Shown: piece by piece, positions 13,709-22,356 of the stretch
Numbering within the stretch: position 1 is the stretch's first letter
Layout: each line of letters opens with the position of its first letter
NCBI GenBank assembly: GCA_028708575.1
Contig: JAQVYQ010000001.1
Span: 116-64,115, forward strand
Direction of reading: 5' to 3'
From: Tissierellia bacterium
GTDB taxonomy: Bacteria > Bacillota > Clostridia > Tissierellales > Tissierellaceae
DNA length: 64,000 nt
Position numbers and translations under genes: made by a program
The notes under the pieces: generated by a model
What the model was told of the DNA's origin: nothing
Databases searched by the model: none
What the model saw: only the letters and a program-made list of their open reading frames with translations

Positions 13709-14767
13709 ATGGTAAAATTAGATATATTTTTAAAAGGTTGTGATACTATTTTTTTTAGTGATAATTTAAATCAAAATAATCCATTTGAAGTAGAAGAAAT
13801 AAAGAAGTTCTTAAGTATTTTTGGTGTAGAATATGATTTTCCAGATATTACATATGTAATTCGAGATAATGATGAAATAATAGCAACAGGTTCTGCATCA
13901 GGAAATATACTTAAATACTTTTTTGCTAAATGTACTTATAGTGGGCAAGGAGCAATAGGTATAATATATAATTCCTTATTAGAGTATGTAATAGAAAAAG
14001 GTTATAATTCTTATTTCATATTTACTACACCTAATAATAAGGCAATATTTAGTTCTCTTGGGCTAAATGAAGTATATTCAACGAATAGCGTAATTCTTTT
14101 AGAAGGTGGCTTTTACAATTATTCTAATTGGATAAGAAAAGTAAAAGATTATGTAGGTGTGAAAAATGGAAAGCGTGGTGTCATTGTTGTAAATTGCAAT
14201 CCAATGACATTAGGACATAAGTATTTAATGAATGAAGCTTTAAAAAAAGTAGATGAACTTATTATATTTGTAGTTGAAGAAGATTTGTCAATATTTCCAT
14301 TTGAGACAAGATATAATATTGTTGTTAATGAATTTAAAGGTGATGATAGAGTAAAAATTATTAAAGGTGGACCTTACATAATTTCTAGAGGAACATTCCC
14401 AACTTACTTTATCAAACAAAAAGATAAAATGTTAGATATATATACAGAATTAGATGCTAGCATATTTGCTAATAAAATTGCAAAAGATTTAGAGATTGAT
14501 ATTAGATTTCTAGGCTCAGAACCTATAGATGTAGTTACATTAGCCTATAATAAATCCTTAAAAGAAATATTAGAGGATAAAGATATTGAAGTAAAGATTG
14601 TTGATAGAAAAGAAGAGGCAAATGAACCAATTAGTGCATCCTATGTAAGAAAGCTTTTAAAAGAAGATAAGGTTGAAGATGCATATAAATTGCTCCCTAA
14701 AAGTACAATTGAGTTTTTAAATTCTAAAGAAGGAATGCAAATTATTGATAAAATAAAAACTGTATAA
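13709..14767 (+). CDS. citC: [Citrate/citramalate lyase] ligase (ACP acetylating); start uncertain
   Basis: VNCNPMTLGH, FVVEED, GGPYIISRGTFPTYF, RFLGSEP, ISASYVR; best SD points to ATT 13748 (see findings). Confidence 0.88.
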   Translation: MVKLDIFLKGCDTIFFSDNLNQNNPFEVEEIKKFLSIFGVEYDFPDITYVIRDNDEIIATGSASGNILKYFFAKCTYSGQGAIGIIYNSLLEYVIEKGYNSYFIFTTPNNKAIFSSLGLNEVYSTNSVILLEGGFYNYSNWIRKVKDYVGVKNGKRGVIVVNCNPMTLGHKYLMNEALKKVDELIIFVVEEDLSIFPFETRYNIVVNEFKGDDRVKIIKGGPYIISRGTFPTYFIKQKDKMLDIYTELDASIFANKIAKDLEIDIRFLGSEPIDVVTLAYNKSLKEILEDKDIEVKIVDRKEEANEPISASYVRKLLKEDKVEDAYKLLPKSTIEFLNSKEGMQIIDKIKTV

Positions 14768-14780
14768 TAAAATATATGAT

Positions 14781-14817
14781 AAAAAGGAGTAAGACCATAC
14801 TGGTTTTGCTCCTTTTT
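14781..14817 (+). terminator. Intrinsic terminator ending the glutamate fermentation locus
   Basis: AAAAAGGAGTAAGACC-atact-GGTTTTGCTCCTTTTT. Confidence 0.85.
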
Positions 14818-15062
14818 AACTTTATTCACCACTGAGTGCTACTGCATATTTGGGTAACGGCCAAACAATTAGACCTTTATACAAGCTATTAAAAACAAAT
14901 GATTTACTATGTTGTATTAACAAGTTACAACTGAGATTTAAAATTACCATAAGATTGAAAAATGTAGTATTATATACATGTGAAGTTTAGTAAAAAACCA
15001 AGTGTGACAGTTATGAAATTGAATTTTCTAATATTAGTCAAATATTGTTGGAGGAATAAATT

Positions 15063-16529
15063 ATGGGCTACAAAATTGCAATAGGTGGTATACATATAGA
15101 ATCTTCTACATTTACTCCTTATATATCAGGTGAAAGTGACTTCAAGATTAAACGTGGTCAAGAATTATTGAATTCATATTCATGGTTAAAGGACTTTAGT
15201 CCTGATATTGAATGTATACCTTTAGTATATGCAAGAGCAATACCAGGTGGTATTGTAAGTAAAGCTTTTTATAGTGATTGGCATAAAGAATTCATCAGTT
15301 TGTTAAAGAAAGCTATATCTGAAAATCAAATTGATGGTTTACTGTTTGATATACATGGAGCAATGAGCGTTGAAGGGATGCAAGATGCTGAAGGAATAAT
15401 TTTAGAAGAGATTAGAGAAATTGTAGGAAAAAGTACAGTTATTTCAACTACAATGGACTTGCATGGAAATGTATCTGATAAATTATTTTATTCAAGCGAT
15501 TTATTAAATTGCCACAGGACTGCACCACACATAGATACAGTAGAAACAAAAAAGCGAGCTTTTGAAAATCTTATAAAAGTATTGAAAAATAATCGAGATA
15601 AATTAGTAAGAGCTAAGGTAGACATTCCTATTCTTTTGCCTGGGGAAAAAACATCAACTGAAGTAGAACCTGGGAAGTCTCTATATGCAAAACTAGATGA
15701 GATATGCAACAACGATGATATTATAGATGCTTCTATATGGATGGGATTTCCTTGGGCTGATCAACCCCGTTGCCATGCTGCTATTGTAATTACAGGCATT
15801 GATAAAGAACTTATTAAAATAGAAGCAGAAAAATTAGCTGACAAGTTTTGGAATCTAAGAAATGAATTTAAGTTCGTTGGGCCCGTTGAAAAGGCAGATG
15901 AAGCCATTAGTCTGGCATTATCTTCAAAAGTGAAACCTTTCTTTCTTTCTGATACAGGTGATAATCCTGGAGCTGGTGGCGTAGGTGATATGAATTTATT
16001 ATTAAAAAAATTTTTGGAATTAAATAAGTCTAATAAAATTGATAAAAGAATTCTGTTTTCTTCTATTTTTGATTCTAAATCAATTGAAGTATTATATGAG
16101 AATAAAATAGGTTCAAATGTTTTATTATCCTTAGGTGGCAAGTCAGATTTATCATTTGGAGGACCTGCAGAAATCGAGGTTACTATTGACTTTTTTTTCA
16201 GAGACTATATGGCAGGAAGATCCGCTGTTGTATGTATAGACAATATTTCAGTCATTATTACTGAAAATAGGTATCAATATGGAACACGGGAGGCATTTAT
16301 TAAGGCTGGTATAAATAATCTTACAAATTATGATATTATTGTTGTAAAAATGGGATATCTTGAACCTGATCTTAGTAAGGTTGCCAAAGGCTGGATAATG
16401 GCATTGACACCAGGTTCTGTTAGACAAGATATAATAAATATTCAATATAAATACTTAAAAAGACCATTGTTTCCACTAGAATCTCAAGAGTTTAAACCCG
16501 AATTACATGCAAATATAGTAATTGGATAA
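15063..16529 (+). CDS. M81 family metallopeptidase (MlrC-like)
   Basis: KIAIGGIHIESSTF, FDIHGAM, DLHGN, HRTAPHID, LLPGEK, GFPWAD, SDTGDNPGAGG, VVKMGY; GGAGG RBS. Confidence 0.9.
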   Translation: MGYKIAIGGIHIESSTFTPYISGESDFKIKRGQELLNSYSWLKDFSPDIECIPLVYARAIPGGIVSKAFYSDWHKEFISLLKKAISENQIDGLLFDIHGAMSVEGMQDAEGIILEEIREIVGKSTVISTTMDLHGNVSDKLFYSSDLLNCHRTAPHIDTVETKKRAFENLIKVLKNNRDKLVRAKVDIPILLPGEKTSTEVEPGKSLYAKLDEICNNDDIIDASIWMGFPWADQPRCHAAIVITGIDKELIKIEAEKLADKFWNLRNEFKFVGPVEKADEAISLALSSKVKPFFLSDTGDNPGAGGVGDMNLLLKKFLELNKSNKIDKRILFSSIFDSKSIEVLYENKIGSNVLLSLGGKSDLSFGGPAEIEVTIDFFFRDYMAGRSAVVCIDNISVIITENRYQYGTREAFIKAGINNLTNYDIIVVKMGYLEPDLSKVAKGWIMALTPGSVRQDIINIQYKYLKRPLFPLESQEFKPELHANIVIG

Positions 16530-16634
16530 ATGTATCATAGAATAAATAGTTCATAATGAACAATTGATAATAAAAAATATGGCAGAAAGGAGAGTGTTGA
16601 TGCATTTACATTAAATGTTCAACACAGTTAAGTT

Positions 16635-18884
16635 ATGTTAAGTTTGAATGAACATAAAAGTATATTGGTAATATATGATGCGCTGGAAATGTTAAGACAA
16701 CCTCATGCAGATAATCATAGTTTTATGGAAAGCATAATTTCGAATCTGTTTTTGGAATCACAGGCTTATAGCCTTGAATTCGCCCATGGTAATTATGCTG
16801 AGGAAATATTAAATACTCTTAATGAAGCTAAATATGATCTGATAATATTTGCTTCAAATGCAATTATAAGAAGAGATAGCAATATATATAGAATACTTGA
16901 CAAAAACAAGAACAGTTTAGAGAATTTTATTGAATCAGGTAAGAGCCTTGTAGTATTTCATCAAGGTTTTGCGGGAGTAAATTCAGAAGTTGATTTTTTA
17001 GAATTTGCTGGTGCCAAACAATGGGTTTGTGCAGATACGGAGAGCGCAAATGTTGACTTTAGTGTAAATCTGGAACATCCTATAATGCAGTTTCCAAATA
17101 GGATAAGTAAGCAGAACTTCATCGATAATATAAATAAATCTCAGTTTTATTTATGTTATAACGGTATTGAATTACCTTCTGATGCCGCAGATAGTAGAAT
17201 CTCTAAAGCTGTATGGCTTGAATCTCCAACTCAGTGTGTTGCTTTGATGACATATGAAAACATAGGTAGGCTAGTCTTGTGTCCATATCCTGCCGATTGG
17301 ATAAGAGATGGGGCATTAGCATCAAATATTCTTTATTATGCAATTTATGGCCTTCCTAAAATAGTGTCTATAAATAATAATGGACAAGTTAATGAAGAAT
17401 ATTATAATATGCTATGTACTCGTATATCTGGAATAGAAACAGTAACAAAGTATTATGATTCTGACGAGATAGAAAATAATCCTAGGTTTAATTATTTGGT
17501 TAAACATGCTAAACTATTTATATTTCCATCGAATGATTTAAAAGAAAAGTACTTAGAAACAAATATAATGAAAAGAGCAATAGAAAACGGATCCAAATTA
17601 GTAGTAGCAAATTCGTATAGGATAGACAACATTAATGTAGAGAACTTAAATATTCTAATTGGTCGAACAAACTATAATCAGAATAACATAGTGTTTAACT
17701 CGATTTTATCAGATTTAAAGATTTCAAACTGGTTTGGAAATGCTTTGTTACATGATATTCATGATGTGTTACTATCTGTTTATGATTCATCTTTTGATAA
17801 TTCTATATTTAGTTCAAGAATATTTCAAGATAAAATTTTAAACTTTAAACATCTGATTTATGAAAGAGCACAATTGTGGATAGGAAATAATTCTATAGAA
17901 CAAGATCCTATAACCGGTATAATGGCAGTATGGTTAATTAAGGTTTCAGAAAAAGACAAGAAAATTAGTAATAACATTTTAGATAAACTTAATTTATTAA
18001 GAGAGGACAAGAGATGTCAAGATTTTAGGTTGACTCTTCAGGCATTAATAAGTGAGGGAATCGATGATGTCTATAAACTTACAATAGATTATGAGAACCA
18101 AGCGGAGAATTCATTAGGAACCATTGTACGTAGATTAGATGATATTAATATGTGCAGAATATTAGGTAAGGAAATAGAAATCTCACCTAAAGAGTATGAA
18201 AAAATATATTTTCAGATTGTTCAATGCCATAAAGAAAAACCAAATTTCTTTGATAAAAGTGATTCTACAATACCTACTATTATTTCAATAACTAGGTTTA
18301 TATTAGATATTCCATCTCATTTAGATATAAAAATGGATACAAATATTTTATTAAATGATTTTGTGTGCTTTTTATCCAAGTATAGTAGTCAAAGCAGCGA
18401 TATAATCAGTAACAATGATATTATCTCCTTAAATATTGCTAATTCTAAATTATCTTTATTGATGTCATTAGGAATCTTATTGAAAGTCGATAACATTTAT
18501 CCTAGAGGGCTATTCGAGTCGCTTTCTTCAATTGGAGAATTTGATAATGTAGCTTACAGCTCAGAAGAAAAGTTAGAATTATTACATAAAGGTATAATTA
18601 ACAGAGATGAATTAATAGAGAATTTGAAATCAGGAATGGAAGAACTTCAGACTAAGTCAAATAAAGAATTATCTGAAATGCGTGCACGATCATCAATTGG
18701 TGGAGTTACTATTGTAGTTTCTATGGTAATATTGCTTGCTCTAAATATATATTATATTATCCGAGTAATTTTATTAAAAGGCAGTGGATTTACTGAAGAT
18801 TTAGGTATATTATTAGCTTTATTACCTGTTACAATTGGCTATATTGCTTTTGTTATCAAATCTAAATTATATGTTATTAAATAA
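16635..18884 (+). CDS. Hypothetical 749-aa protein: GATase-like N-terminal module, helical middle, coiled coil, two C-terminal TM helices
   Basis: Long ORF; YDLIIFASN...LENFIESGKSLVVFHQ, EHPI, GRLVL...ASNILYYA resemble class I GATase-like folds; hydrophobic segments near aa 690-715 and 722-745. Confidence 0.8.
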   Translation: MLSLNEHKSILVIYDALEMLRQPHADNHSFMESIISNLFLESQAYSLEFAHGNYAEEILNTLNEAKYDLIIFASNAIIRRDSNIYRILDKNKNSLENFIESGKSLVVFHQGFAGVNSEVDFLEFAGAKQWVCADTESANVDFSVNLEHPIMQFPNRISKQNFIDNINKSQFYLCYNGIELPSDAADSRISKAVWLESPTQCVALMTYENIGRLVLCPYPADWIRDGALASNILYYAIYGLPKIVSINNNGQVNEEYYNMLCTRISGIETVTKYYDSDEIENNPRFNYLVKHAKLFIFPSNDLKEKYLETNIMKRAIENGSKLVVANSYRIDNINVENLNILIGRTNYNQNNIVFNSILSDLKISNWFGNALLHDIHDVLLSVYDSSFDNSIFSSRIFQDKILNFKHLIYERAQLWIGNNSIEQDPITGIMAVWLIKVSEKDKKISNNILDKLNLLREDKRCQDFRLTLQALISEGIDDVYKLTIDYENQAENSLGTIVRRLDDINMCRILGKEIEISPKEYEKIYFQIVQCHKEKPNFFDKSDSTIPTIISITRFILDIPSHLDIKMDTNILLNDFVCFLSKYSSQSSDIISNNDIISLNIANSKLSLLMSLGILLKVDNIYPRGLFESLSSIGEFDNVAYSSEEKLELLHKGIINRDELIENLKSGMEELQTKSNKELSEMRARSSIGGVTIVVSMVILLALNIYYIIRVILLKGSGFTEDLGILLALLPVTIGYIAFVIKSKLYVIK

Positions 18885-18964
18885 TCCAACCCCAATTGAG
18901 AATGAATGGTTTGAATTAAAGTCATATCATCAAAATTAATAGATAGCTTGAAGGGAAGGCTTTT

Positions 18965-20143
18965 ATGAAGAAACGAATCTATGCAATTTTATTTATAACA
19001 ACGATTTTACTACTTGTATCTTGTGGCTTTAATAATATTCAAGTAGAGGACAAGCAAGATACCGAAGTTTGGGTCAATCAAAACACTCAAGTAGTGGAAA
19101 AACAAACTGTTAAAGAGCAAATCACTCTTGAGACTCAAAAAGATAGGATTACAATTTTGGCTGCGGGAGATATAATGTTTCACATGCCTCAAGTAAATGG
19201 AGCAAAAATTGGTGATACTTACGATTTTAGTAATTCCTTTAAAAATGTAAAAGAACACATTAAAAATAGCGATTTGGCTTTAGTTAATTTTGAGACTGTA
19301 GTTGCTGGAAATGAAAAAGGTTTTAGTGGATTTCCAAGGTTCAATAGTCCAACAGAAACTGTTAAGGCTTTGAAGGATGCTGGATTTGATGTTCTCTCAA
19401 CTGCAAATAATCACAGTATGGACCAGGGAGTAAATGGACTCATATCTACAATAGATACTATTAATAATAATGGTCTTGAAAATATTGGAACATACAAAGA
19501 TGAAAATAGATCAGGCTTAATTAAAGAAGTAAATAATATTAAAATCGGACTATTGTCATACACATATGGTATTAATGGGCTTGATTCATTACTACCAAGT
19601 GATAAATCATACATGGTAAATTTAATTGATGAAGAATTGATACAAAATGACATAGATGAATTAAATGATAAAGTAGACTTAACAATTGTATTTATTCATT
19701 GGGGTAATGAATATCAAAAACAACCTTCTAACTATCAGGTGGACCTAGGTAACAAGTTAATTGAATGGGGGGCGGATATTATTTTAGGTAGTCACTCTCA
19801 TGTAATTCAAAAAGCTGCAGTAGTAAATTATGAAGGTGAAGATAAATATATCATATATTCCATGGGAAATTTTTTATCAAACCAAAGAAAGAATAATACA
19901 GACAATCATTATACTGAAGATGGTGTTATGGTATTATTAAATATTGAAAAAGAAGAAAAGGCTATTATCAAAGATATAGAATATATTCCAACATGGGTTA
20001 ATAGATATTTAGTTGGTAATAGTTTTGCTCATGAGATATTGCCAGTTGAGGAAGCAATGAATAGTAATAACTATAATGATATTGAATTAAGGCTTGAAAA
20101 GTCCATGGAGGATACAATTACTACATTGAATCCGATAAATTAG
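18965..20143 (+). CDS. CapA family (PGA_cap, metallophosphoesterase-like) lipoprotein
   Basis: Lipobox LLVSC; AAGDIMFH, NFET, ANNHSMD, IHWGNEY, GSHSHV, YSMGNF. Confidence 0.88.
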   Translation: MKKRIYAILFITTILLLVSCGFNNIQVEDKQDTEVWVNQNTQVVEKQTVKEQITLETQKDRITILAAGDIMFHMPQVNGAKIGDTYDFSNSFKNVKEHIKNSDLALVNFETVVAGNEKGFSGFPRFNSPTETVKALKDAGFDVLSTANNHSMDQGVNGLISTIDTINNNGLENIGTYKDENRSGLIKEVNNIKIGLLSYTYGINGLDSLLPSDKSYMVNLIDEELIQNDIDELNDKVDLTIVFIHWGNEYQKQPSNYQVDLGNKLIEWGADIILGSHSHVIQKAAVVNYEGEDKYIIYSMGNFLSNQRKNNTDNHYTEDGVMVLLNIEKEEKAIIKDIEYIPTWVNRYLVGNSFAHEILPVEEAMNSNNYNDIELRLEKSMEDTITTLNPIN

Positions 20144-20291
20144 ATGTAAAAAGTTTTAACAAGATACAAAGATTATTAAGGTAGAATTTATATAAATTCA
20201 CAGTATTAATAAGATTATTTAATTCTAAATAATAAACTTAGACCAGAATTTATTCAAATGGTTTGTGAAATTTAAGCATTGGAGAGATTTG

Positions 20292-20942
20292 ATGGTAATT
20301 AACAAGTTAGATAAAAGTGAGAAGTTGGATAGTGTTATCTTTGATTTGGATGGAACCTTATGGGATTCAACCAGGGAGGTTTTTATTTCTTGGAATCAAG
20401 TATTAGACAAGTATGATGAAGTAACAAAAAAACTTACAAAAAAAGATATAGAAAATTTTATGGGTACTCCAACAGCAAAGATATTTGAGGATTTTTTACA
20501 TTATTTAGATCACGATAAGATAGATGAAATAGGGAATGAATGCAGTAAAAATGAAATTAAATATATCAAAGAACATGGAGGTATTTTATATCCTGGACTT
20601 GAGAATGTGTTAAAGAAACTTTCAACTAGATTCAAGTTGTCCATTGTTAGTAACTGTCAAGAAGGATATATTGAAGCATTCTTAAATTATTATGGATTTG
20701 AAAAATATTTTATGGATTTTGAAAGCATAGGTAGAACTGGACTATCTAAAGCTGAAAACATCAAACTTGTAATTAATAGAAATAATCTGAAGAAATCCAT
20801 ATATGTAGGAGATGTTGATGGTGACAGTAATGCAGCAAGATTAGCTGGGATTTCATTTATATACGCTAGATATGGTTTTGGTAAAGTTGAGAAATATGAT
20901 TATGTAGTTGACAATATAGTAGAATTGTTGAAAGTGATTTAA
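20292..20942 (+). CDS. HAD family hydrolase
   Basis: FDLDGTLWDS, IVSN, YVGD motifs; GGAGAG RBS before TTG/ATG 20289/20292. Confidence 0.88.
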   Translation: MVINKLDKSEKLDSVIFDLDGTLWDSTREVFISWNQVLDKYDEVTKKLTKKDIENFMGTPTAKIFEDFLHYLDHDKIDEIGNECSKNEIKYIKEHGGILYPGLENVLKKLSTRFKLSIVSNCQEGYIEAFLNYYGFEKYFMDFESIGRTGLSKAENIKLVINRNNLKKSIYVGDVDGDSNAARLAGISFIYARYGFGKVEKYDYVVDNIVELLKVI

Positions 20943-20966
20943 TTAAAATTAAATGCATACAATAAT

Positions 20967-20999
20967 AAAAATTAAGCATGAAAAATGCTTAATTTTTTT
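20967..20999 (+). terminator. Intrinsic terminator after the HAD gene
   Basis: AAAAATTAAGCAT-gaaaa-ATGCTTAATTTTT plus T tract. Confidence 0.8.
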
Positions 21000-21183
21000 A
21001 AATTATTTAATTTTATTAATTAAACTTTTAAAAAAATATTTTACTAAGTTGTATTTAACTACCTTCATAGAAGATATAAATAAGGGTAAAGTAAAATTAT
21101 AAATATTCTATTATTAATTTAACATTAATATTTTTGATAATAGATCAATTTTAAGGATACTAATATTAAAAAGGAGAATGTTT

Positions 21184-22356
21184 ATGGATATATTAACTGT
21201 TCAAGAATTGAATGAATTAGTGAATAAAGATAGTAATTTAATTGTATCCATTTATATGCCTACAATTAAAAGTGGAGTAGATATAAGGCAAAATCATATA
21301 AAATTCAAACAATTATTAAGAGAAGCAGAGGCAGAACTATACAATATGGAAATGGCTAAAAGTGAAATAGAAGAATTATTAAAACCAGCAACTAATATTA
21401 TTACTGAAACAAAATTTTGGCAGAATCAAGGAGATGGCCTAGCTTTATTTATACATTCAGATGGTATAGATTACTATAGACTAGCTATTGAATTTAATGA
21501 GACAGTAAAAATAAGCAATAAAATCTATATAAAACCATTACTTCCTCTGTTTACTGGGAATGGACAGTTTAATATTTTAGCATTAAGTAAAAATCAAGTT
21601 AGATTATTTAGATGTAGTAGGCATACAGTCAATGAGATTGAACTAAAGGATGCCCCTGATAGTATGCATGATATGCAAGTTGATGATGAGGCTGATAGTC
21701 CTAGAAGAGATCTAGCAATGCGTACCTCTAGAAATGTAGGCAAAAACCAATTAACTTATAATAAAGTCACTCAAGCTCAATCTAATGAAGATGACTATGA
21801 ACGTAATGAATTAACTCGTTATTTTAGAGCAATTGATGAATCTTTAGTTGATATGCATGAAGGCGAAGTAGTACCTCTTGTATTAACAGGTGTAGAGTAT
21901 TTAATACCAATATATAGGGAAAAGAGTAAGTATCCTTATATTGTTGATGATTTTATAAGAGGAAATCCCGAACTACTAAATGGAGAAGAGCTTCATAAAT
22001 TAGCTTGGGAAATTGTAGAACCACTTTTCAATAAGGACAAAAAATTAGCAGAAGAAAGATACAAACAATACCATGGTCAAAAAAATCATTTATTTGCAAA
22101 TTCTCTAGATAAAATAATTCCAGCTGCCTATGGAGGTCAAATAGATGCACTATTCTTAGAAGATGGATTGCAACAATGGGGTAAGTACAGTTTAGATAAG
22201 AACAAAGTCGAAATCCATGATGAACCTAGGGATGGTGATGAAGATTTAATTGAATATGTATCATTACTAACCTTGTCTAGAGGTGGAAAGGTGTTCTCAG
22301 TCAGTTCCAGTGATTTACCAGACGAAAGTCCAGTTGCTGCTGTTTTAAGATTTTAA
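21184..22356 (+). CDS. baeRF (bacterial aeRF1-like release factor family) protein
   Basis: VSIYMPT, QNHIKFKQLLREAE, GDGLALF, YIKPLLP, ILALSKNQVRLF, YFRAID, LVLTG, RGG-KV C-terminus. Confidence 0.8.
   Translation: MDILTVQELNELVNKDSNLIVSIYMPTIKSGVDIRQNHIKFKQLLREAEAELYNMEMAKSEIEELLKPATNIITETKFWQNQGDGLALFIHSDGIDYYRLAIEFNETVKISNKIYIKPLLPLFTGNGQFNILALSKNQVRLFRCSRHTVNEIELKDAPDSMHDMQVDDEADSPRRDLAMRTSRNVGKNQLTYNKVTQAQSNEDDYERNELTRYFRAIDESLVDMHEGEVVPLVLTGVEYLIPIYREKSKYPYIVDDFIRGNPELLNGEELHKLAWEIVEPLFNKDKKLAEERYKQYHGQKNHLFANSLDKIIPAAYGGQIDALFLEDGLQQWGKYSLDKNKVEIHDEPRDGDEDLIEYVSLLTLSRGGKVFSVSSSDLPDESPVAAVLRF

What the first reader, a model, noticed from the sequence alone, without database searches (positions are those of the whole stretch)
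16635..18884. 749-aa orphan with tandem GATase-like modules, helical core, coiled coil and 2-TM tail
Seen: an internal repeat, YDLIIFASNA...LENFIESGKSLVVFHQ (aa 67-110, nt 16833-16964) versus AKLFIFPSND...MKRAIENGSKLVVANS (aa 292-327, nt 17508-17615). The first module also has HPI and GRLVL...NILYYA elements typical of class I GATase/ThuA-like folds but no nucleophile Cys at the elbow. A long helical region, a coiled coil (about aa 645-685) and two TM helices follow. I recognise no named family with this architecture. Enzyme-like domain plus C-terminal 2TM layouts occur in conflict/defence effectors and in membrane sensors; either role is inference.
Basis: partly seen in the sequence, partly recalled or inferred. 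Interest (0 to 1): 0.7.

Follow-up and report, generated by a model that had tools for sequence, protein, structure and literature searches.

The report
Membrane-tethered ThuA-like protein with M81 partner
The 749-residue gene is real and under selection; it founds a very rare, unnamed family of cytoplasmic proteins tied to the membrane by a C-terminal hairpin, and in this branch it always travels with its own zinc hydrolase, but its function is untested and nothing found here links it to phage defence.

Summary
The ORF at 16635-18884 is intact and under purifying selection (dN/dS 0.22).

- **Domains.** There is an N-terminal class-I-GATase/ThuA-like head with His, not Cys, at the elbow. It is followed by a small alpha/beta domain, a roughly 12-helix domain with no structural match, a roughly 40-residue coiled-coil stalk and two C-terminal TM helices. 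The bulk of the protein is predicted to be cytoplasmic.
- **The "second GATase module".** This is only a degenerate half-copy. BLASTP finds nothing significant, and the profile-profile P is 0.006.
- **Not a strict orphan.** It belongs to a rare unnamed family: 37 cluster representatives among 1.84 billion proteins, 0 true hits in 400 genomes of its own phylum, and 1 more in 400 actinobacterial genomes.
- **Main new result.** Every full-length relative of this branch whose locus I could read (25-59% GC) has a dedicated MlrC-like M81 zinc hydrolase immediately upstream. These linked hydrolases form one clade (100/99) and keep all five Zn-site residues.
- **Other branches.** They carry a PIG-L deacetylase or a GT4 glycosyltransferase instead, or no partner.
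- **Links not found.** No PADLOC, PHROG, plasmid, viral or SLATT match was found.

Best reading (confidence 0.4): a membrane-anchored binding or docking subunit for a soluble amide hydrolase. Defence and sensor roles are unsupported. The scan has one earlier first-reader note on this same stretch of DNA (e1-5280672) and none on other DNA.

The parts
14780..14818 (+). Terminator-like hairpin after citC; likely upstream boundary of the transcription unit
   Evidence: It is the only terminator-like site in 14600-20400. Promoter-like sites follow at 14917-14973. No terminator lies between the M81 gene, the target and the PGA_cap gene.
15063..16529 (+). Dedicated MlrC-like M81 zinc hydrolase (488 aa, no signal peptide), the conserved partner
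   Evidence: Pfam DUF1485 scores 306 bits and MlrC_C 130 bits. PDB matches are 3iuu and 7ylq at E 1e-28 and 5e-27. E13, H98, D132, H134 and H156 align with the Zn-site residues Glu56, His150, Asp184, His186 and His208 of MlrC (PMC12474180). The gene lies immediately upstream of the target in the window and in L024, L011, L001-3, L007-9 and L004. The linked copies form one clade at 100/99 support.
16585..16641 (+). Conserved leader: strong SD (16585-16592), a 4-codon uORF (16600-16614) and an 8-codon uORF (16615-16641) whose stop overlaps the target ATG; the target ATG has no SD of its own
   Evidence: Read directly from the sequence. The leader is 84% identical to L024 and L011. In L011 an 8-nt deletion puts the SD-proximal start in frame. 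Its function was not tested.
16635..17360 (+). N-terminal ThuA-like (class I GATase fold) head, aa 1-242, with the conserved polar pocket residues R21, D26, N75, H109-Q110, D221-W222 and N231
   Evidence: Family-wide invariant columns come from alignment A2. Pfam ThuA is below its cut-off in 9 of 29 members. Foldseek finds 4jqs, 1t0b and 8khs. hhalign is collinear with real ThuA at P 0.0021. dN/dS is 0.19.
17361..17669 (+). Small alpha/beta domain, aa 243-345: a degenerate half-copy of the head
   Evidence: AlphaFold predicts a beta-alpha-beta-alpha-beta-alpha-alpha-beta-beta order. hhalign against domain 1 gives P 0.0057. There is no Pfam hit. dN/dS is 0.12.
17670..18554 (+). Helical domain of about 12 helices, aa 346-640, with conserved D374, D377, R411, W415, D424, T427, R499 and D502
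   Evidence: The sub-model of aa 243-640 has pLDDT 81 and pTM 0.76. Foldseek against PDB gives a best E of 0.14, which is not significant. Invariant columns come from A1 and A4.
18555..18683 (+). Coiled-coil-like stalk, aa 641-683, continuous with TM1
   Evidence: AlphaFold predicts a single helix at 643-713. The heptad count is 9 of 14. The family profile gives weak matches to coiled-coil chains in PDB.
18684..18869 (+). C-terminal TM hairpin (TM1 aa 684-717, TM2 aa 721-745), predicted N-in/C-in
   Evidence: Hydropathy supports both segments, and most full-length members checked keep at least one C-terminal TM segment. G689 is nearly invariant, and P731 and Y736 are invariant in A1. Lys and Arg flank both cytoplasmic ends. 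dN/dS is 0.13.
18965..20143 (+). PGA_cap (CapA-like) gene, linked to the pair only within this genus
   Evidence: Pfam PGA_cap scores 249 bits. It sits in the same position in L024 and G003 but not in L001, L011, L007 or L004. At the same slot G002 has neither the pair nor a PGA_cap gene; its only PGA_cap homologue (50% identity) lies about 0.9 Mb away.

Best explanation
**Shown**
- The gene encodes a selected, full-length member of a rare unnamed family of roughly 700-800-aa proteins.
- The protein has a ThuA-like head, a degenerate half-copy alpha/beta domain, a helical domain with no structural match, and a helix running into a C-terminal TM hairpin.
- In this branch the gene is an obligate neighbour of a dedicated M81 (MlrC-like) zinc hydrolase that has no signal peptide.

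**Inferred**
- The protein sits on the inner face of the membrane with its bulk in the cytoplasm.
- It probably oligomerises through the coiled-coil stalk.
- It probably uses the conserved polar pocket of the ThuA-like head (R21, D26, N75, H109-Q110, D221-W222, N231) to bind a polar ligand bearing a sugar or an amide.
- It would then dock or feed the soluble M81 hydrolase, so that an unusual amide-linked substrate is processed next to the membrane. That substrate could be a peptide with non-standard linkages or a glycoconjugate.

**Precedent and sister branches**
- Sister branches replace M81 with a PIG-L N-deacetylase or a GT4 glycosyltransferase. This points to a (glyco)conjugate substrate class.
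- ThuA-like modules already serve as carbohydrate-binding or docking modules beside metal-dependent amide hydrolases in Agd3 and PelA.
For: **Real and selected gene**
- dN/dS is 0.22 for the target and 0.20 for the partner, and every domain is below 0.33.
- Twelve of the 14 members of the 90% cluster are intact 749-aa copies, from NCBI, ENA and Logan assemblies.

**Architecture**.

**Obligate pair**
- M81 lies directly upstream (gaps of 10-105 nt) in six independent lineages from 25.5% to 59% GC.
- Within the genus, the target and the closely related (80% identical) M81 gene are both found in G000 and G003 and in neither G001 nor G002.
- Linked M81s are 46-80% identical to each other. Unlinked M81s are at most 35% identical in 26 of 400 phylum genomes, none of which has the target.
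- The linked M81s form one clade at 100/99 support.
- Pairwise identities of the two proteins rise and fall together across the fifteen locus pairs.
- No terminator lies between the two genes.

**Partner probably active**: all five Zn-site residues are kept.

**Partner swapping in sister branches**
- PIG-L overlaps the start of P0008.
- A GT4 gene lies 7 nt upstream in L050, and GT4 genes flank the member in L049.

**Literature precedent for ThuA-like modules beside amide hydrolases**
- The Agd3 N-domain is closest to 4JQS and was tested there as a carbohydrate-binding module (PMC7229062).
- The PelA alpha/beta domain resembles 4JQS (10.1101/2024.06.28.601253).
- The catalytic domain of DMFase has a ThuA-like core (PMC7686228).
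Against: - There is no direct evidence of physical contact, of any substrate, or of binding by the pocket.
- The actinobacterial branch (Brachybacterium, Cryobacterium, Nocardioides) has no conserved partner. The family's core function therefore does not need M81.
- The conserved residues lie at the canonical active-site end of the GATase fold, so the head may itself be catalytic rather than a binding module.
- Sequence support for ThuA homology is weak. It is below the Pfam cut-off, hhalign probability is 13% against two ThuA sequences, and there is no signal against a mixed set of four.
- AlphaFold confidence for the full chain is moderate (pLDDT 72, pTM 0.45, 7-sequence alignment).
- The glycoconjugate idea rests on three sister loci only.
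Confidence: 0.4

Rival explanations
1. Two-step catabolic enzyme pair. The ThuA-like head is itself a metal- or His-dependent hydrolase or lyase, and M81 carries out a second cleavage of an imported unusual peptide in this amino-acid-fermenting anaerobe. Membrane tethering places the pair next to a transporter.
For: - The invariant polar residues lie where GATase-fold active sites lie.
- The ThuA-like core of DMFase hosts an amidase site.
- The organism carries the methylaspartate glutamate-fermentation genes just upstream.
- MlrC acts in the cytoplasm on transported peptides (PMC12474180).
Against: - No transporter is conserved next to the pair.
- The family is far too rare for a general nutritional role: 0 of 400 phylum genomes and 1 of 3 congeners.
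- No catalytic nucleophile or known metal triad was identified.
Confidence: 0.2
2. Conflict or anti-phage module. The coiled-coil 2TM protein is a membrane-perturbing effector, or a sensor-effector, controlled or processed by the adjacent M81 protease.
For: - Distribution is very sparse, patchy and cross-phylum.
- The pair occupies a variable chromosomal slot that holds EcsC in a congener.
- Partner enzymes are swapped between branches.
- One sister locus has an HNH nuclease-domain gene 2 kb away, and the L050 GT4 scores 30.3 bits on the GT4-conflict model against a cut-off of 26.
Against: - The protein, its partner and the adjacent genes in the window give no PADLOC hit.
- No SLATT or other effector domain was found in six tails.
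- No PHROG, plasmid, IMG/VR or BFVD relatives were found.
- Flanks are housekeeping or metabolic genes, with no integrase or defence island.
- M81 has no sensor domain.
- Selection on the TM tail is ordinary purifying selection.
Confidence: 0.15
3. Poly-gamma-glutamate (PGA) accessory module. M81, the target and the CapA-like gene together process or anchor PGA made by the pgsBC genes elsewhere in the genome.
For: - The only PGA_cap-family gene of the genome lies directly downstream of the target.
- A pgsB-like plus pgsC locus without a PGA_cap-family gene (a 357-aa ORF with no Pfam match follows pgsC) lies on contig C43.
- The GATase fold includes gamma-glutamyl hydrolases (established knowledge).
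Against: - PgsC was not found in G003, which has the pair and CapA, nor in G001 or G002.
- CapA is not linked to the pair outside this genus.
- The PGA_cap family is common in organisms that make no PGA; the control search finds it in 7 of 14 genomes.
Confidence: 0.05
4. Membrane sensor or signalling protein.
For: The protein is membrane-anchored, has a coiled-coil stalk and has a conserved ligand pocket.
Against: - The predicted external loop is about 10 residues.
- No kinase, cyclase, HTH or other output domain was found.
- No regulator is conserved nearby.
Confidence: 0.05

Closest known systems
ThuA-like proteins (Pfam PF06283; structures 4JQS and 1T0B)
   Same: - The alpha/beta/alpha class-I-GATase-like fold (Foldseek probability 1.0, TM 0.52-0.54).
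- His instead of Cys at the beta4 elbow, and the G..LVV(L/F)H, HPI..P and C-terminal Asn motifs align collinearly.
   Different: - The score is below the Pfam cut-off (28-31 bits against 33.4).
- The protein has 749 aa and several domains, and is tethered to the membrane, whereas ThuA is a roughly 250-aa soluble protein.
- There is no ThuB-type oxidoreductase or sugar ABC transporter nearby.
- It has its own invariant RQxHAD, SN and DW motifs.
GATase1/ThuA-like accessory domains of the exopolysaccharide deacetylases Agd3 (CE18) and PelA
   Same: A triad-less ThuA-like module, closest to 4JQS, working beside a metal-dependent amide hydrolase. In those enzymes it was tested or proposed as a carbohydrate-binding or docking module.
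   Different: - Those are single secreted or periplasmic polypeptides acting on exopolysaccharide.
- Here the module and the hydrolase are separate genes, the hydrolase is M81 rather than CE4/CE18, and the predicted location is the cytoplasmic face of the membrane.
- No sequence relationship was tested.
MlrC microcystinase and the M81 family (partner gene)
   Same: The DUF1485 and MlrC_C domains, the five Zn-site residues, and a cytoplasmic location.
   Different: - It is only about 30% identical to MlrC.
- It scores 102 bits on NCBIfam micro_ase_MlrC against a cut-off of 999.
- There are no mlrA, mlrB or mlrD genes nearby.
- It forms a separate clade found only with the target.
2TM conflict effectors (SLATT-type)
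   Same: An enzyme-like or sensor-like N-terminal part followed by two C-terminal TM helices.
   Different: - No SLATT profile hit at E <= 5 in six family tails.
- No CBASS, SMODS or SLOG neighbours, and no PADLOC hit.

Membership tests
ThuA (PF06283) | Pfam HMM score at or above the gathering cut-off (33.4 bits) | tested here: not met
   The full protein scores 28.1 bits and the N-domain alone 30.8 bits. Nine of 29 family members hit the model, all below the cut-off.
ThuA (PF06283) | Class-I-GATase-like alpha/beta/alpha fold closest to solved ThuA-like structures | tested here: met
   Foldseek gives 4jqs at E 9.7e-4, probability 1.0 and TMt 0.54, and 1t0b at probability 1.0 and TMt 0.52. The model pLDDT is moderate at 72.
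ThuA (PF06283) | His at the position of the GATase nucleophile, and collinear motif order | tested here: met
   hhalign of the family N-domain against two genuine ThuA sequences covers 1-243 against 3-237, with H109 aligned to the LHS His (P 0.0021, probability 13%). This is weak. A mixed four-sequence ThuA alignment gave no signal.
ThuA (PF06283) | Genomic association with a ThuB-type oxidoreductase and sugar ABC transport (thuEFGKAB) | tested here: not met
   Neighbours are the M81 and PGA_cap genes and citramalate/citrate-lyase genes. No GFO/IDH/MocA gene or sugar transporter is linked to the gene in any locus of this branch.
Class I glutamine amidotransferase (catalytic) | Cys-His-Glu triad with Cys at the nucleophile elbow | tested here: not met
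   The elbow is VVFHQG (H109-Q110), and no conserved Cys is found in the family.
SLATT / 2TM conflict effector | Profile match of the 2TM tail, and linkage to nucleotide-signalling or other defence genes | tested here: not met
   Six tails gave no SLATT hit at E <= 5. The protein and the genes next to it give no PADLOC hit.
Known anti-phage defence systems (PADLOC-DB 2.0) | Any component model matched | tested here: not met
   No families matched P0001, the M81 partner or the genes next to them. This library dates from 2023, so newer systems are not covered.
M81 / MlrC family (partner gene 15063-16529) | DUF1485 and MlrC_C domains above the cut-offs, and the Glu/His/Asp/His/His Zn site | tested here: met
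   The domains score 306 and 130 bits. E13, H98, D132, H134 and H156 align to the MlrC site residues.
Microcystinase MlrC (equivalog NF041767) | NCBIfam exception-model cut-off (999 bits) and an mlrABD context | tested here: not met
   The score is 102 bits, and no mlrA, mlrB or mlrD genes lie nearby.

The most novel reading that the evidence does not exclude
The M81 gene and the 749-aa gene form a previously undescribed, horizontally mobile two-gene membrane system. A dedicated metallohydrolase acts on, or is gated by, a coiled-coil 2TM platform. Sister versions use a PIG-L or GT4 partner. The system would be either a new conflict or abortive-infection module, or a new machine for remodelling a membrane-proximal glycoconjugate.
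Probability: 0.15. Interest if true: 0.8.

Novelty: new variant of a known kind. Interest (0 to 1): 0.5.

Why it matters
**An unnamed protein family.** The work defines a family with a clear domain plan and a set of invariant residues. No curated library covers it.

**A clean co-inherited gene pair.** The pair consists of a dedicated M81 clade and a membrane-tethered ThuA-like protein, and it is conserved from 25% to 59% GC. ThuA-like domains and M81 hydrolases other than microcystinase both have poorly understood biochemistry. A pair that always travels together gives an experimental handle on both: co-expression, an interaction test and a substrate screen.

**Possible outcomes.** If the ThuA-like head proves to be a ligand-binding or docking module for amide hydrolases, a theme seen in Agd3 and PelA would extend to the cytoplasmic membrane face. 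If the pair instead proves to be a conflict system, it would be of a new type.

Tried and rejected
- **Thin ThuA template.** hhalign of the N-domain profile against a mixed four-sequence ThuA alignment gave probability 0.3%. Only the two-sequence "type 2" template gave a collinear, weak match.
- **Searches that added no relatives.** The search for homologous proteins with profiles A2 and A3 added almost nothing. The search for related loci with A1 failed for lack of a conserved stretch.
- **Middle region.** Foldseek of aa 243-640 against PDB gave a best E of 0.14. The Csm6, CARF and designed-helical-barrel rows have RMSD 12-23 and low probability, so I rejected them as meaningless.
- **Profile against PDB sequences.** Only coiled-coil/TM compositional matches appeared, such as 8qox at E 0.0035.
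- **Poly-gamma-glutamate link.** The genome has a pgsB-like plus pgsC locus elsewhere, and its sole PGA_cap gene lies next to the target. PgsC was not found in the congener that also has the pair, and CapA is not linked outside the genus, so I rejected this link.
- **Phage or plasmid origin.** Nothing was found in PHROGs, PLSDB, IMG/VR or BFVD.
- **Structured RNA.** Rfam found none in 14600-20400.
- **Proteins from the representatives search (P0009-P0041).** I did not submit these to the look-up of encoding contigs or structure prediction, because the tools' stated rule excludes them. The neighbourhoods of most distant members are therefore unread.
- **Model coordinates.** The structure models are not exposed as coordinates, so I could not check whether the invariant residues cluster in space.
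Full report
**1. The observation**

The ORF 16635-18884 (+) is open and encodes 749 aa. The window has about 30% GC throughout, with no compositional break at the gene.

The only library hit is Pfam ThuA. It scores 28.1 bits over aa 59-153, and 30.8 bits when the N-domain is scanned alone, against a gathering cut-off of 33.4. NCBIfam, PADLOC and PHROGs return nothing. phmmer against PDB sequences also finds nothing.

**2. Structure**

AlphaFold2 was run on a seven-sequence alignment and gave pLDDT 72 and pTM 0.45. It predicts:
- an alpha/beta domain at aa 8-240;
- a second small alpha/beta unit at aa 243-341;
- about twelve helices at aa 347-634;
- one long helix at aa 643-713;
- a last helix at aa 719-742.

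Foldseek against PDB puts ThuA-like proteins first: 4jqs at E 9.7e-4, probability 1.0 and TMt 0.54, and 1t0b at TMt 0.52. The GATase DnfC (8khs) follows at TMt 0.54. The KaiC and iGluR-ATD rows have RMSD of about 20 and only reflect two tandem alpha/beta domains.

A separate model of aa 243-640 is better (pLDDT 81, pTM 0.76). It has no significant PDB neighbour, with a best E of 0.14. BFVD gives nothing either.

Hydropathy finds two C-terminal TM segments at 684-717 and 721-745. Lys and Arg lie before TM1 and after TM2, and the short loop between them is acidic. By the positive-inside rule this gives N-in/C-in, so the bulk of the protein faces the cytoplasm. This topology is inferred, not measured.

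The segment 640-686 has 9 of 14 hydrophobic a/d positions in its best heptad register, against a background of 0.32. That fits a short coiled coil.

**3. The claimed internal repeat**

BLASTP of aa 1-245 against 246-422 is not significant.

Profile-profile comparison of family columns 243-345 against 1-242 gives a collinear alignment to residues 10-122. The control against the helical domain gives P 0.65.

The second unit is therefore plausibly a degenerate duplicate of the first half of the head. It lacks the conserved polar residues and the C-terminal half of the fold, so it is not a second GATase-like module.

**4. Relation to ThuA**

No genuine ThuA gene was found in 60 related genomes. 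I therefore took four from two Brachybacterium genomes.
- Against all four, hhalign shows nothing.
- Against the two "type 2" sequences it gives a full-length collinear alignment: 1-243 against 3-237, P 0.0021, probability 13%.
- In that alignment G102, H109, the HPI motif, P154 and N231 coincide with ThuA residues.

Together with the fold match, this makes the head a distant ThuA-like member of the class-I-GATase superfamily. It has His where amidotransferases have Cys. It fails the Pfam membership threshold.

**5. The family**

Word-seeded search of 5.8 billion proteins finds 7 relatives. Exhaustive phmmer over 1.84 billion representatives finds 37 at E <= 1e-3. Most are 700-800 aa with the same N-terminal motif and one or two C-terminal TM segments. 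Their composition ranges from very AT-rich to very GC-rich.

Across 29 full-length members the invariant residues are R21, D26, N75, Q110, P154, D221, W222, N231, G239 and P241. D15, E18, Q22, S74, G102 and H109 are at least 90% conserved. By the ThuA/GATase alignment these lie on the loops after beta1, beta3 and beta4 and after the late strand. That is the canonical pocket end of the sheet.

The family is very sparse:
- one copy in the window's genome;
- 1 of 3 congeners, 0 of 21 other genomes of the taxonomic family, and 0 of 16 of the order;
- no true hit in 400 genomes of the phylum;
- one additional hit in 400 actinobacterial genomes.

dN/dS against the 78% orthologue is 0.22, and every domain is below 0.33. 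Twelve of the 14 members of the 90% cluster are intact 749-aa copies drawn from NCBI, ENA and Logan assemblies.

**6. The partner**

Immediately upstream (15063-16529) is an MlrC-like M81 protein with DUF1485 and MlrC_C domains and no signal peptide. The same arrangement, with gaps of 10-105 nt, is found in every locus of this branch that could be read: L024, L011, L001-3, L007-9 and L004. These loci span 25.5-59% GC. The other neighbours differ between loci.

Evidence that this is a dedicated partner:
- Within the genus, the target and the closely related (80% identical) M81 gene are both found in G000 and G003 and in neither G001 nor G002.
- Linked M81 proteins are 46-80% identical to one another.
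- M81 proteins in 26 of 400 genomes of the phylum are all at most 35% identical, and those genomes lack the target.
- In a maximum-likelihood tree the six linked M81s form one group at 100/99 support.
- Pairwise identities of the two proteins rise and fall together across the fifteen locus pairs.

The partner keeps E13, H98, D132, H134 and H156. These align with the Zn-site residues reported for MlrC (PMC12474180).

A terminator-like hairpin follows citC at 14780-14818, and none separates the M81, target and PGA_cap genes.

**7. The chromosomal slot**

In the window and in L024 the order is citFC, M81, target, PGA_cap, then (HAD and baeRF in the window only), mltG and, further downstream, polA. 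The complete congener G002 has citC, EcsC on the reverse strand, baeRF, mltG and polA. The cassette therefore occupies a variable slot in an otherwise syntenic housekeeping region. No integrase or defence genes are present.

**8. Sister branches**

- P0008 (61% GC) has a PIG-L deacetylase overlapping its start.
- Two metagenomic members have GT4 glycosyltransferases. One lies 7 nt upstream in L050. L049 has one divergent GT4, a second GT4 and a GNAT-SCP2 gene nearby.
- L049 also has a lone HNH-domain gene 2 kb away.
- The actinobacterial "DGLESTRQIHADGG" branch (Brachybacterium, Cryobacterium, Nocardioides) stands alone with no conserved neighbour.

**9. Interpretation**

What is shown:
- The gene is real and under selection, and it belongs to a rare unnamed family.
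- The head is ThuA-like and has no Cys nucleophile.
- The protein ends in a C-terminal TM hairpin.
- The window's branch carries a dedicated and probably active M81 hydrolase as an obligate neighbour.

What is inferred:
- The topology is cytoplasm-facing.
- The stalk drives oligomerisation.
- The conserved pocket binds a ligand.
- The protein acts as a membrane-anchored binding or docking subunit for the hydrolase.

The literature gives a precedent. Triad-less ThuA-like modules closest to 4JQS accompany the metal-dependent deacetylases Agd3 and PelA. In Agd3 the module was tested as a carbohydrate-binding module, and in PelA it was proposed to bind carbohydrate or a partner protein. A ThuA-like core also hosts the amidase site of DMFase, so catalysis by the head cannot be excluded.

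The M81, PIG-L and GT4 partner set suggests substrates that are amide-bearing (glyco)conjugates. This rests on few loci.

**10. Rivals**

- **Defence.** Rarity, patchiness, the variable slot and partner swapping fit a defence role. Nothing else does. There are no PADLOC, SLATT, PHROG, plasmid, IMG/VR or BFVD links, and the flanks are housekeeping genes.
- **Sensor.** This is unlikely given the external loop of about 10 residues and the absence of an output domain.
- **Poly-gamma-glutamate.** The sole PGA_cap gene lies next to the target, and pgsBC lies on another contig. However, PgsC was not found in the congener that carries the pair, and the CapA linkage is limited to the genus.

**11. Limits**

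- Only seven sequences were allowed into structure prediction.
- Most distant members could not be looked up for context.

**12. Verdict**

The layout is right, the "tandem GATase" description is overstated, and the protein is not a strict orphan. The defence and sensor readings are not. The gene pair is a new variant built on known parts, with its function still open. Interest is 0.5.

Noticed in passing
window 16530-16641: The 105-nt spacer before the target is 84% identical to two relatives. It holds a strong SD (16585-16592), then a 4-codon uORF (ATG 16600), then TAA-ATG into an 8-codon uORF whose stop overlaps the target ATG at 16635. The target ATG has no SD of its own. In L011 an 8-nt deletion puts the SD-proximal start in frame, giving an 11-aa N-terminal extension. 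This could be a termination-reinitiation relay, or simply a decayed start.
   Followed up: partly
G000 contig C43 (L058 5561-10154): A pgsB-like (Mur_ligase_M) and pgsC (CapC) pair is followed by a 357-aa ORF with no Pfam match. A two-component system lies downstream of it and two AstE/AspA-like zinc hydrolase-fold genes lie upstream of pgsB. There is no PGA_cap-family gene in this locus. PgsC was not found in three congeners.
   Followed up: partly
window 14768-21177 versus L047 (G002): The slot between citC and the baeRF/mltG genes is variable within the genus. This genome has M81, the target, PGA_cap and HAD there. The complete congener has a single reverse-strand EcsC gene.
   Followed up: yes
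window 21178-22356: A baeRF-family protein matches the NCBIfam AOC03_06830-family ribosome hibernation factor model far below its cut-off (134 bits against 330). It is conserved in the same position in the congener G002.
   Followed up: no
G440:C1 3303481-3305597 (L020/L022; Brachybacterium sp. Z12): The family member matches the profile in two separate pieces (positions 1-616 and 623-737) that overlap by 4 nt and lie in different frames. This may be a frameshift just before the TM tail, or a sequencing error.
   Followed up: no
L049 3200-3748 (-) and 4714-10620: In a 176-kb metagenome contig a family member lies among two GT4 glycosyltransferases and a GNAT-SCP2 acetyltransferase. A stand-alone HNH nuclease-domain gene lies 2 kb away and resembles CBASS effector HNH domains (PADLOC E 1e-20).
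   Followed up: partly
L001 4603-5643: In the 38%-identical relative, a GHL6/alpha-L-fucosidase-like gene overlaps the stop of the family member by 8 nt. This is another carbohydrate-active neighbour, but it was seen in that lineage only.
   Followed up: no
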